Positions 14,072-17,000 of a stretch of DNA of 64,000 bases are shown here, piece by piece. Location of the stretch: the NCBI RefSeq assembly GCF_045037415.1, contig NZ_CP173438.1, one strand, 5' to 3'. Position numbers: made by a program. Origin of the DNA: Escherichia coli. Lineage in GTDB: Bacteria > Pseudomonadota > Gammaproteobacteria > Enterobacterales > Enterobacteriaceae. Each line of letters begins with the position of its first letter. The stretch's first letter is position 1.

Positions 14072-17000
14072 TTAGGAAGGTGGAAAGTTGCTCAATAGAT
14101 TGCGCGGACGTCGTGACGTTAAAACGTTGCAGCAGTCCGGCAGCGCGGCAGGCGCAGAGCTCGCCCTGGCAGGTGCCCATCCCCACACGGGTACGACGGC
14201 GTAAATCCAGCAGGCTATTAACGTTTAAATTTTCTACCGCGTACTGCACTTCACCCGCAGTTACCGCTTCGCACTCACATACCAGGCTACGGTGCAGACG
14301 GCCTTCGCTCAGCCAGGCAGGCGTGCGATCGCCATGACGATAAACCGCAGAACCGCGCAGCGGGGCAGGTAGGGAGATGACTTTACGCAAGGTAACTTCA
14401 GCGGGTTCCTGTGAACCAGGAAGTGCCAGATCGGCGGTCGTACAGGGGCGCGTGTTGCCCAGTTTGCGGCATACGGCATCGGTAGCCCATTCCGCCATCA
14501 GCCGATAGGTCATCAGTTTGCCACCGGTGATGGTGATAAACCCGTCCAGACCATCGCGTTCAGCATGGTCGAGCAGCACGATGCCACGGCTGACGTTACG
14601 TCCGCTCGGATCGTCATCGCTGGCAACCAGCGGGCGTACGCCAGAGTAGGCCCGCAAAATGCGCGTTTTCGCCATCACGGGGGCCAGTTTTTCCCCTTCA
14701 CGCAGCAGAATATCAACTTCTTCTGCCGTTACTCGATTATCGTCAATCTCGTTGTAATCAATACGTAAAGAGGTGGTGCCAATCAGCGAAATGGTATCGC
14801 CAGGCACCAGAATATCGGCGTCGGAAGGTTTGCGGCAGCGGTTGATCACATGCTGATTAATGCGGTGATCCATGATCAGCAGCGATCCTTTCGCCGGGAA
14901 CATGCGAATGCGCAGATCGGCATATTCGGCAATGTGTTGCCCCCAGATCCCGGCGGCATTAACTACGACAGGTGCATGAAGTGCCTGAATTTCGCCGGTG
15001 AGATGGTTACGTACACGAACGCCGCACACCGCCGCGCCTTCACGAATCAGCCCCGTGACTTCATGAGCGGTAAGGATAACGGCACCGTGTTCTTTGGCAT
15101 CCAGCATGTTTGCTGCTGTCAGACGAAATGGATCAACGGTGCCATCCGGAACTTTCACCGCGCCAATCAGTGCCGGGTTAACGGCAGGTTCGATAATGCG
15201 CGCTTGCTGCGGATCAATGGCTTCTGCGCTGATCCCTGCTTCTTCGCAGGCGCGGATAAAAGTGGCCTGGAAGGAGAGGTCATCTTCCGGCAGGGTGATA
15301 AACAGGCCGTTGGTTGGTTCTACGCAGTGACGTGCAATGCGTTTCAGGATCTGGTTTTCACTAATACATTCGCGGGCCGATTCCGCATCGGTTACCGCAT
15401 AGCGCGCACCGCTGTGCAGCAGGCCGTGGTTACGCCCGGTGGCACCGGTTGCGATGTCGTGGCGCTCAACCAAAATCACGCGCAGCCCGCGCAGGGCACA
15501 GTCGCGGGCAATCCCGGCTCCCGTTGCGCCACCGCCAATGATAATCACGTCACTTGATTGCGAGTCGCGAGTTTTCATTGTTATCCCTCAGAAGTTCGTT
15601 TTTTACCATTTAGCCATAGTAAAAACATGAATTGTTTGATTTCGCGCATATTCGCTCATAATTCGAAAGTGAAACGTGATTTCATGCGTCATTCTGAACA
15701 TTTCAACCATCGTATTTAATAATGTGTGCGGTAATTCACATTTAATTTATGAATGTTTTCTTAACATCGCGGCAACTCAAGAAACGGCAGGTTCTCCCAC
15801 TGAATCAGGCTGTTAATCATAAATAAGACCACGGGCCACGGAGGCTATCAATGTTGAGTATTTTTAAACCAGCGCCACACAAAGCGCGCTTACCTGCCGC
15901 GGAGATCGATCCGACTTATCGTCGATTGCGCTGGCAAATTTTCCTGGGGATATTCTTTGGCTATGCTGCTTACTATTTGGTTCGTAAGAACTTTGCGCTC
16001 GCTATGCCTTATCTGGTTGAGCAGGGATTCTCACGCGGTGATTTAGGTTTTGCCCTTTCGGGGATCTCGATTGCTTATGGATTTTCGAAATTCATCATGG
16101 GTTCGGTATCGGATCGCTCGAATCCGCGCGTTTTCCTGCCCGCAGGTTTGATTCTGGCGGCGGCAGTGATGTTGTTTATGGGCTTTGTGCCATGGGCGAC
16201 GTCGAGCATTGCGGTGATGTTTGTACTGTTGTTCCTCTGCGGTTGGTTCCAGGGGATGGGGTGGCCGCCGTGTGGTCGTACTATGGTGCACTGGTGGTCG
16301 CAGAAAGAACGTGGCGGTATTGTGTCAGTGTGGAACTGTGCGCACAACGTCGGTGGTGGTATTCCGCCGCTGCTGTTCCTGCTGGGGATGGCCTGGTTCA
16401 ATGACTGGCACGCGGCGCTCTATATGCCCGCTTTCTGCGCCATTCTGGTGGCACTGTTCGCCTTTGCGATGATGCGCGATACCCCGCAATCCTGTGGCCT
16501 GCCGCCGATTGAAGAGTACAAAAATGATTATCCGGACGACTATAACGAAAAAGCGGAACAGGAGCTGACCGCGAAGCAGATCTTCATGCAGTACGTGCTG
16601 CCGAACAAACTGCTGTGGTATATCGCCATCGCCAACGTGTTCGTTTATCTGCTGCGTTACGGCATCCTCGACTGGTCACCGACTTATCTGAAAGAGGTTA
16701 AGCATTTCGCGCTGGATAAATCCTCCTGGGCCTACTTTCTTTATGAATATGCAGGTATTCCGGGCACCCTGCTGTGCGGCTGGATGTCGGATAAAGTCTT
16801 TCGTGGTAACCGTGGGGCAACCGGCGTCTTCTTTATGACACTGGTGACCATCGCGACTATCGTTTACTGGATGAACCCGGCAGGTAACCCAACCGTCGAT
16901 ATGATTTGTATGATTGTTATCGGCTTCCTGATCTATGGCCCTGTGATGCTGATCGGTCTACATGCGCTGGAACTGGCACCGAAAAAAGCGGCAGGTACGG

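What the first reader, a model, noticed from the sequence alone, without database searches (positions are those of the whole stretch)
15579..15850. glpACB/glpTQ divergent control region with a strong CRP-like site
TGTGCggtaatTCACA (15725..15740) is a near-consensus CRP site placed between the divergent operons. The surrounding sequence has several TGTTC/GAACA-like half-sites that could be GlpR operators, but I could not assign them confidently.
Basis: partly seen in the sequence, partly recalled or inferred. Interest (0 to 1): 0.2.

Follow-up and report, generated by a model that had tools for sequence, protein, structure and literature searches.

The report
Known CRP site of glpT promoter
This is the well-studied E. 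coli control region between the glycerol-3-phosphate transporter (glpTQ) and anaerobic dehydrogenase (glpACB) operons, and the flagged sequence is the CRP activator site of the glpT promoter, already shown by a published footprint, so the finding is correct but ordinary.

Summary
The window is E. coli chromosome. glpA starts at 15578 (minus strand) and glpT at 15851 (plus strand), leaving a 272-bp intergenic region. TGTGCggtaatTCACA lies at 15725-15740.

The 22-mer 15722-15743 matches the CRP consensus at 13 of 16 informative positions, the joint best score in 64 kb. Only 58 of 20,000 composition-matched shuffles of the intergenic region reach that score.

A published DNase I footprint (Kurabayashi 2017, PMC5352689) places cAMP-CRP on this sequence, with one spacer base different, at -30 to -52 of glpT. 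That paper also shows glpT expression needs crp and cyaA.

My comparison across Enterobacterales shows:
- The two core half-sites are conserved and the spacer is not.
- The site sits exactly 29.5 bp before a TAnnAT -10 hexamer (class II, about -41.5) in most of the 47 species that could be anchored.

The rest of the region holds a weaker second CRP-like site (15672-15693), a composite FNR/GlpR box (15631-15650) and further GlpR-like operators, one of which overlaps the CRP site. The GlpR assignments and the glpA start site are inferences, because the primary GlpR footprint papers were not available.

Verdict: already known, low interest.

The parts
13950..15578 (-). glpA coding sequence (first gene of glpACB; glpB and glpC follow on the minus strand)
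   Evidence: NCBIfam equivalog NF008313, 1106 bits. Annotated as glpA in RefSeq genomes with identical DNA.
15851..17209 (+). glpT coding sequence (glpQ follows at 17214-18290)
   Evidence: NCBIfam equivalog NF008433, 977 bits. RefSeq annotation.
15722..15743 (.). CRP-1, the main cAMP-CRP site (core TGTGC-N6-TCACA at 15725-15740, centre 15732.5). It is the class II activator site of the glpT promoter.
   Evidence: Scores 13 of 16 against the consensus, joint best in the window. Published CRP footprint on this sequence at -30 to -52. Core halves are 0.91 and 0.88 conserved against 0.62 for the spacer in 26 species, with T15727, G15728 and C15737 invariant. Lies 29.5 bp before TAnnAT in most of 47 anchored species. 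Within E. coli only the spacer varies.
15762..15767 (+). glpT -10 hexamer TAACAT (inferred); the transcription start would then be about 15772-15774
   Evidence: T15762, A15763, A15766 and T15767 are each conserved in at least 90% of 26 species. The hexamer is at a fixed 29.5-bp distance from the CRP-1 centre. The numbering in PMC5352689 implies +1 at about 15772.
15672..15693 (.). CRP-2, a weaker second CRP-like site (AAACGTGATTTCATGCGTCATT, centre 15682.5, 50 bp from CRP-1). Its left half also resembles an FNR half-site.
   Evidence: Scores 10 of 16 in E. coli and 12-13 of 16 at the same position in Citrobacter, Enterobacter, Superficieibacter, Buttiauxella and Entomohabitans. Reviews and a genomic SELEX study report several CRP sites in this spacer. 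By my arithmetic it lies within the 70-bp FNR footprint.
15631..15650 (.). Composite FNR box (TTGAT-TTCG-CGCAT, 15636-15649, centre 15642.5) and the best GlpR-like operator (ATTGTTTGAT-TTCGCGCATA)
   Evidence: FNR(D154A) footprint and box reported at -123 to -136 of glpT. Matches the GlpR consensus at 15 of 20, top two in the window. 0.89 conserved in 26 species. The FNR box scores 9 of 10 in 26 of 50 species.
15608..15616 (-). Invariant block TGGCTAAAT on the glpA-sense strand, inferred to be an extended -10-like element of an FNR class II glpA promoter (start inferred at about 15601)
   Evidence: The most conserved non-coding block on the glpA side of the spacer (0.90). The arrangement ATCAA-N19-TGn-CYnAAT has fixed spacing in 45-46 of 50 species. 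Its function was not tested, and the hexamer lacks the usual A at -11.
15591..15610 (.). GlpR-like operator candidate (GAAGTTCGTT half-site) over the inferred glpA start
   Evidence: Scores 14 of 20. The GTTCGTTTT motif is conserved in many Enterobacteriaceae. Inference only.
15683..15702 (.). GlpR-like operator candidate (CATGCGTCAT-TCTGAACATT)
   Evidence: Scores 12 of 20. TGC at 15685-15687 is invariant or nearly so, and the GAACAT half recurs in several genera. Inference only.
15723..15742 (.). GlpR-like operator candidate superimposed on CRP-1
   Evidence: Scores 14 of 20. The non-consensus C15729 (22 of 26 species) and the spacer base G15730 (19 of 26) are conserved and match the CG of the GlpR half-site. 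Inference only.
15840..15844 (+). glpT Shine-Dalgarno sequence GGAGG, within the invariant block GCCACGGAGGC
   Evidence: 0.99 conserved in 26 species.

Best explanation
The flagged sequence is the primary cAMP-CRP binding site of the E. coli glpTQ promoter. It works as a class II site.

Shown: CRP binds this sequence in vitro, glpT expression depends on crp and cyaA, and the site is conserved with a fixed distance to a -10 hexamer.

Inferred from the established class II mechanism: the CRP dimer is centred about 41.5 bp upstream of the glpT start, 29.5 bp before the -10 hexamer TAACAT. It overlaps the weak -35 region and recruits RNA polymerase directly, which makes glpT expression dependent on cAMP (catabolite control).

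The site belongs to a shared 272-bp control region that also contains:
- a weaker CRP-like site 50 bp further upstream;
- an FNR box that doubles as a GlpR operator and sits at class II distance from a conserved -10-like element of glpA;
- several GlpR-like operators, one of which overlaps the CRP site.

Inferred: glycerol-3-phosphate (through GlpR), cAMP (through CRP) and anaerobiosis (through FNR) are integrated on both divergent operons. The GlpR overlap, the role of the second CRP site and the glpA start position are also inferences.
For: Locus identity. Sequence and coordinates.

Consensus match: 13 of 16, joint best in the window, with 58 of 20,000 shuffles reaching it.

Published evidence: DNase I footprint of cAMP-CRP on AATGTGTGCGGCAATTCACATT at -30 to -52 of glpT; loss of glpT promoter activity in crp and cyaA mutants; a separate FNR footprint upstream (PMC5352689). 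Genomic SELEX recovers glpA and glpT and notes multiple CRP sites in this spacer (PMC3105977). A review citing Larson 1992 says the same.

Conservation: invariant TG and C, conserved half-sites and a variable spacer in 26 Enterobacteriaceae. Fixed 29.5-bp spacing to TAnnAT in most of 47 anchored Enterobacterales species, including Yersinia, Serratia, Pectobacterium, Dickeya and Providencia. Only the spacer is polymorphic within E. coli.

FNR box and glpA -10-like geometry. FNR activation of glpTQ and glpABC in genome-scale data.
Against: No transcription start was measured here. The -41.5 position rests on the conserved hexamer. The published numbering puts +1 about 2 bp differently, which would centre the site at about -39.5.

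The footprint was done on EHEC DNA, which has C where the window has T at 15732. This is a spacer position, so an effect is unlikely, but this allele itself was not tested.

The core motif alone is not significant across the window.

The GlpR consensus came from my memory of Zhao et al. 1994, and the GlpR footprints (Larson 1992; Yang 1997) could not be read.
Confidence: 0.93

Rival explanations
1. The palindrome is primarily a GlpR operator. It resembles CRP only because the two consensus sequences are similar, and CRP acts mainly from the other site (15672-15693).
For: 15723-15742 matches the GlpR 20-mer at 14 of 20. The non-CRP-consensus bases C15729 and G15730 are conserved and fit the GlpR half-site.
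Against: cAMP-CRP footprints exactly this sequence, and only one CRP-protected region was seen on the 300-bp probe. TG and TCA, the CRP contact bases, are the invariant positions. The class II spacing to the -10 hexamer is conserved across the order. A dual CRP/GlpR site is compatible with the main explanation, so only the 'GlpR only' version is a true rival.
Confidence: 0.03
2. The site serves mainly the glpACB promoter as a distal upstream CRP site rather than glpT.
For: The region is shared. The site lies 90 bp from the FNR box centre, which would put it at about -131.5 of the inferred glpA start, or about -91.5 if glpA starts near 15641. Genomic SELEX lists both glpA and glpT as CRP targets.
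Against: Its distance to the glpT -10 hexamer is fixed, but its distance to the glpA elements differs between lineages (89-90 bp in Enterobacteriaceae against about 153 bp in other families). glpT promoter activity is abolished in crp and cyaA mutants. A secondary effect on glpA is not excluded.
Confidence: 0.03
3. It is a chance match in AT-rich intergenic DNA, or an FNR rather than a CRP site.
For: Core matches with up to 1 mismatch occur at about the chance rate across the window. CRP and FNR belong to one protein family and have related sites.
Against: Only 58 of 20,000 shuffles of the spacer reach this score. The site is deeply conserved. The FNR consensus match here is only 6 of 10, and the FNR footprint lies elsewhere.
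Confidence: 0.01

Closest known systems
E. coli glpTQ promoter CRP site, as footprinted in EHEC O157 (Kurabayashi et al. 2017, PMC5352689; earlier Larson et al. 1992, J Biol Chem 267:6114, not readable here)
   Same: It is the same locus and the same 22-bp sequence apart from one spacer base. The site holds the same position relative to glpT, and the FNR box TTGATTTCGCGCAT upstream is identical.
   Different: The window carries T at 15732 (ggTaat) where EHEC and K-12-like strains have C. It also carries a minority allele in the patch 15704-15713 between the two CRP-like sites.
Class II CRP-dependent promoters (for example galP1 and melAB; textbook knowledge)
   Same: The CRP dimer is centred near -41.5 and overlaps a poor -35 region. 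A recognisable -10 hexamer is present, and expression depends absolutely on cAMP-CRP.
   Different: The promoter is embedded in a divergent region with a second CRP-like site 50 bp upstream, an FNR site, and GlpR operators that appear to overlap the activator sites.
Other glp regulon control regions (glpFK, glpD) with tandem GlpR operators and CRP sites (from my recollection of Weissenborn 1992 and Ye & Larson 1988)
   Same: They combine cAMP-CRP activation with repression by GlpR bound at multiple operators of about 20 bp.
   Different: Here two operons share the operators, and FNR is an additional input. The operator positions given here are consensus and conservation inferences, not footprints.

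Membership tests
cAMP-CRP binding site | 22-bp two-fold symmetric site with TGTGA-N6-TCACA core and 6-bp spacer | tested here: met
   TGTGC-N6-TCACA matches 9 of 10 core bases. With flanks it matches 13 of 16 informative positions, the joint best in the window.
cAMP-CRP binding site | Physical binding of cAMP-CRP | not testable with these tools
   A published DNase I footprint on the same sequence with one spacer difference (PMC5352689). Genomic SELEX also recovers the glpA/glpT spacer (PMC3105977).
cAMP-CRP binding site | Contact bases conserved while the spacer is free to vary | tested here: met
   T15727, G15728 and C15737 are invariant in 26 species. Half-sites are 0.91 and 0.88 conserved against 0.62 for the spacer. 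E. coli polymorphisms fall only in the spacer.
Class II CRP-dependent promoter (glpT) | Site centred near -41.5, that is about 29.5 bp upstream of the first base of the -10 hexamer | tested here: met
   The centre at 15732.5 lies 29.5 bp before TAACAT (15762-15767). The same spacing to TAnnAT is seen in most of 47 anchored species. Published numbering is -30 to -52. The start site itself was not measured here.
Class II CRP-dependent promoter (glpT) | Expression requires crp and cyaA | not testable with these tools
   Literature: glpT promoter activity is below detection in crp and cyaA mutants.
GlpR (DeoR-family) operator | 20-bp palindrome WATGTTCGWT-AWCGAACATW, usually in tandem arrays | tested here: inconclusive
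   Best matches are 15 of 20 (15631-15650), 14 of 20 (15591-15610 and 15723-15742) and 12 of 20 (15683-15702). Three of the top 20 window hits lie in 272 bp, against 0.085 expected. Half-site enrichment is only p about 0.045. The consensus was taken from memory.
GlpR (DeoR-family) operator | Protection by purified GlpR, relieved by glycerol-3-phosphate | not testable with these tools
   The primary papers (Larson 1992; Yang 1997; Zhao 1994) are not held in the library.
FNR site / class II FNR-dependent promoter (glpA) | TTGAT-N4-ATCAA centred near -41.5 | tested here: inconclusive
   The box at 15636-15649 scores 7 of 10 in E. coli and 9 of 10 in 26 of 50 species. ATCAA-N19-TGn-hexamer spacing is fixed in 45-46 of 50 species. 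An FNR footprint is published. The glpA start is not known here, and the hexamer CTAAAT lacks A at -11.

The most novel reading that the evidence does not exclude
The CRP site may be a deliberately sub-consensus dual CRP/GlpR element. Its conserved C15729 and G15730 depart from the CRP consensus but fit a GlpR half-site.

Separately, the glpA promoter carries an order-wide invariant element, TGnCYnAAT, that lacks the canonical -11A. In Enterobacteriaceae it is accompanied by a conserved inverted repeat (CCACA-N7-TGTGG, 15614-15630), which coincides with a reported weak NsrR ChIP peak. Either feature could reflect an unusual -10 recognition mode or a further, undescribed regulator of glpACB.
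Probability: 0.2. Interest if true: 0.3.

Novelty: already known. Interest (0 to 1): 0.08.

Why it matters
The site controls GlpT, which imports glycerol-3-phosphate and is also one of the two entry routes for the antibiotic fosfomycin. Mutations in this site, or in cya, crp or ptsI, lower fosfomycin susceptibility. For genome annotation it is a correctly recognised textbook regulatory element.

The comparative map made here adds modest value. It shows that the class II CRP geometry at glpT, and a fixed FNR-box to -10 geometry at glpA, are conserved across Enterobacterales.

Tried and rejected
1. Primary papers. I tried to read Larson 1992, Zeng 1996, Iuchi 1990 and Kurabayashi 2015. None is held in the library. 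GlpR operator positions and the glpA start therefore could not be checked against footprints.

2. Genome-wide start-site data. The supplements of Kim 2012 have no glpA or glpT entry. The main text of Myers 2013 has none either. Its supplements show only that glpTQ and glpABC are FNR-activated and that the FNR ChIP peak appears in the hns/stpA double mutant.

3. Core-only motif statistics. These are not significant across the window, so I used the 22-mer with flanks and region-matched shuffles instead.

4. RNA hairpin in a glpA leader. I tested whether the inverted repeat at 15614-15630 forms one. Pairing is only slightly better on the glpA-sense strand. Changes are mostly one-sided, and some genera pair better on the other strand. 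Rfam finds nothing in 13000-19000. I did not pursue this as an RNA element.

5. Generic sigma-70 scan. It finds only one unrelated candidate in the region. That is expected for activator-dependent promoters with poor -35 hexamers.

6. Position of the glpA start. From memory I recalled that the glpT and glpA starts are about 132 bp apart, which would put the glpA start near 15641 with CRP-2 at -41.5. The comparative data favour about 15601, with FNR at -41.5. I could not resolve this, and both promoters may exist.

Full report
**What is there.** The window is E. coli chromosome. An 801-bp stretch around the finding is 100% identical to strain SK1144 and matches 5,419 of 5,426 complete E. coli genomes, always annotated glpA | glpT. 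NCBIfam equivalog models identify:
- GlpA (13950-15578, minus strand), followed by GlpB and GlpC;
- GlpT (15851-17209, plus strand), followed by GlpQ.

Reading the sequence places TGTGC at 15725-15729, ggtaat at 15730-15735 and TCACA at 15736-15740.

**Is it more than chance?**
- The 16-bp core with up to 1 mismatch is not significant in 64 kb: 3 hits against 1.77 expected.
- With the flanking A/T positions, the 22-mer 15722-15743 (ATGTGTGCGGTAATTCACATTT) matches 13 of 16 informative positions of AAATGTGA-N6-TCACATTT. That is the joint best of about 64,000 positions.
- Only 58 of 20,000 composition-matched shuffles of the AT-rich spacer reach that score.

**Published evidence.**
- Kurabayashi et al. 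2017 (PMC5352689) footprinted cAMP-CRP on the glpT upstream region of EHEC. A 25-bp region containing AATGTGTGCGGCAATTCACATT was protected, at -30 to -52 and overlapping the -35 region. The crp and cyaA mutants had no detectable glpT promoter activity. The window differs from that sequence only by T for C at 15732, in the spacer.
- The same paper reports a 70-bp FNR(D154A) footprint 32 bp further upstream. It contains TTGAT-TTCG-CGCAT at -123 to -136, which is window 15636-15649.
- Shimada et al. 2011 (PMC3105977) recovered glpA and glpT by genomic SELEX. They state that multiple CRP sites exist in the glpTQ-glpABC spacer, with roles not yet assigned.
- A review citing Larson 1992 says the same.
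- Supplements of Myers et al. 2013 list glpTQ and glpABC as FNR-activated, with an FNR ChIP peak that appears only in an hns/stpA double mutant.

**Comparative evidence.** A GlpT-based scan of one genome per species returned 80 loci, and 50 of them have glpA divergent from glpT.
- In an alignment of 26 Enterobacteriaceae species (A1), T15727, G15728 and C15737 are invariant. The two half-sites are 0.91 and 0.88 conserved. The spacer is 0.62 conserved and the flanking DNA 0.49.
- In 47 loci that could be anchored on the FNR box, the glpT-proximal CRP-like site lies exactly 29.5 bp before a TAnnAT hexamer in most of them. These include Yersinia, Serratia, Pectobacterium, Dickeya and Providencia. 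In E. coli the hexamer is TAACAT at 15762-15767. This is the class II geometry, centred at about -41.5, and it gives a glpT start of about 15772-15774. The published numbering gives about 15772.
- Among six diverse E. coli alleles, only the spacer of the site varies: ggTaat, ggCaat or gTTaat.

**The rest of the control region (partly inferred).**
1. A weaker CRP-like site, AAACGTGATTTCATGCGTCATT (15672-15693), scores 10 of 16 and lies exactly 50 bp from CRP-1. It scores 12-13 of 16 at the same position in several other genera. By my arithmetic it falls inside the FNR-protected region.
2. The block 15631-15650 is both the published FNR box and the best GlpR-consensus match in the region, at 15 of 20. 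It is 0.89 conserved.
3. In 45-46 of 50 species, the ATCAA half of that box is followed by exactly 19 nt, then TGn, then a hexamer CYnAAT (TGGCTAAAT in E. coli, 15608-15616 on the minus strand). The box itself scores 9 of 10 against the FNR consensus in 26 species. This is the geometry of a class II FNR promoter with an extended -10-like element, and it predicts a glpA start near 15601. My unverified recollection of the primary literature would instead put the start near 15641, with CRP-2 at -41.5. I could not resolve this.
4. Further GlpR-like 20-mers lie at 15591-15610 (14 of 20), 15683-15702 (12 of 20) and 15723-15742 (14 of 20). The last overlaps CRP-1. The conserved non-consensus C15729 (22 of 26 species) and G15730 (19 of 26) fit the CG of a GlpR half-site. 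That suggests GlpR and CRP compete at this site.

The GlpR consensus was taken from memory. Half-site enrichment is only marginal (13 against 7.9 expected), although the full-length matches are strongly concentrated in the spacer.

**Mechanism.** When glucose is absent, cAMP-CRP binds 15722-15743 and, from about -41.5, recruits RNA polymerase to the otherwise weak glpT promoter. The binding and the genetic dependence are shown in the literature. The geometry is shown here by conservation. FNR bound upstream boosts glpT anaerobically (literature) and most likely drives glpA from class II distance (inferred). GlpR, bound at operators that overlap the activator sites and the promoters, keeps both operons off until glycerol-3-phosphate accumulates. 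GlpR repression is established in the literature, but the operator positions given here are inferred.

**Comparison with what is known, and novelty.** This is the known glpT CRP site in a known control region, and all testable defining features of a class II CRP site are met. Nothing about the flagged site is new. The minor unexplained points are listed under things noticed in passing: the unusual invariant -10-like block, the inverted repeat in the glpA promoter spacer, the diverged patch between the CRP sites, and the possible dual CRP/GlpR nature of the site. They do not change the verdict.

**Verdict.** The finding is correct and well located, already known, and of low interest (0.08).

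Noticed in passing
window 15608-15618 (minus strand TnTGGCTAAAT): This is the most conserved non-coding block on the glpA side of the spacer. It is invariant in 26 Enterobacteriaceae and recognisable as TGnCYnAAT across the order, always 19 nt after the ATCAA of the FNR box. If it is the glpA -10 element, it lacks the normally essential A at -11.
   Followed up: partly
window 15614-15630: An inverted repeat (CCACA-N7-TGTGG in most Enterobacteriaceae; CCATA...CATGA in E. coli) lies between the FNR box and the -10-like block of glpA. A published NsrR ChIP-seq peak in strain CFT073 is reported at -41 from glpA (about window 15619), with a predicted half-site AACATGAATTG at 15624-15634 (PMC5320621). 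Pairing statistics do not clearly favour an RNA hairpin.
   Followed up: partly
window 15704-15716: A hypervariable patch lies between the two CRP-like sites. The window allele TTTCAACCATCGTATTT differs at 6 positions within about 10 bp from the K-12-like allele TTTTGTAAATCTTATTT. Most other Enterobacteriaceae have a conserved TTGTCATAAAnnTGTAACAA here. Its reverse complement looks like an ArcA-type direct repeat (TGTTA...TGACA), and E. coli has largely lost it.
   Followed up: no
L022, L040, L045, L049, L052, L056-L058, L060, L061, L064 (Pectobacterium, Yersinia, Serratia, Brenneria), just downstream of the glpT -10 hexamer: In these non-Enterobacteriaceae genera a conserved GlpR-like half-site (ACGTTCGTAATAG or GCTCGTTATGG) directly follows the glpT -10 hexamer. 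E. coli has no such element there. These genera also have a near-consensus CRP site 60 bp, rather than 40 bp, from the FNR box centre.
   Followed up: no
window 15185-15204, 14009-14028, 14063-14082 (inside glpA): Moderate GlpR-consensus matches (13 of 20) lie inside the glpA coding region. From memory, Larson 1992 described remote operators within glpA that act at a distance. These matches are at chance level, so no assignment is made.
   Followed up: no
window 10326-11321 (minus strand): The ORF downstream of glpC is an Rpn-family recombination-promoting nuclease, annotated 'ISNCY family transposase' (NF007418, 716 bits; annotation). It is followed in strain SK1144 by a small pseudogene fragment. 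It looks like an ordinary resident E. coli gene.
   Followed up: partly
window 63587-63608: The only other 22-mer in the window scoring 13 of 16 against the CRP consensus is AAATGTGAGCAAAAGCCCGTTT. It has a perfect left half only. Its context was not examined.
   Followed up: no
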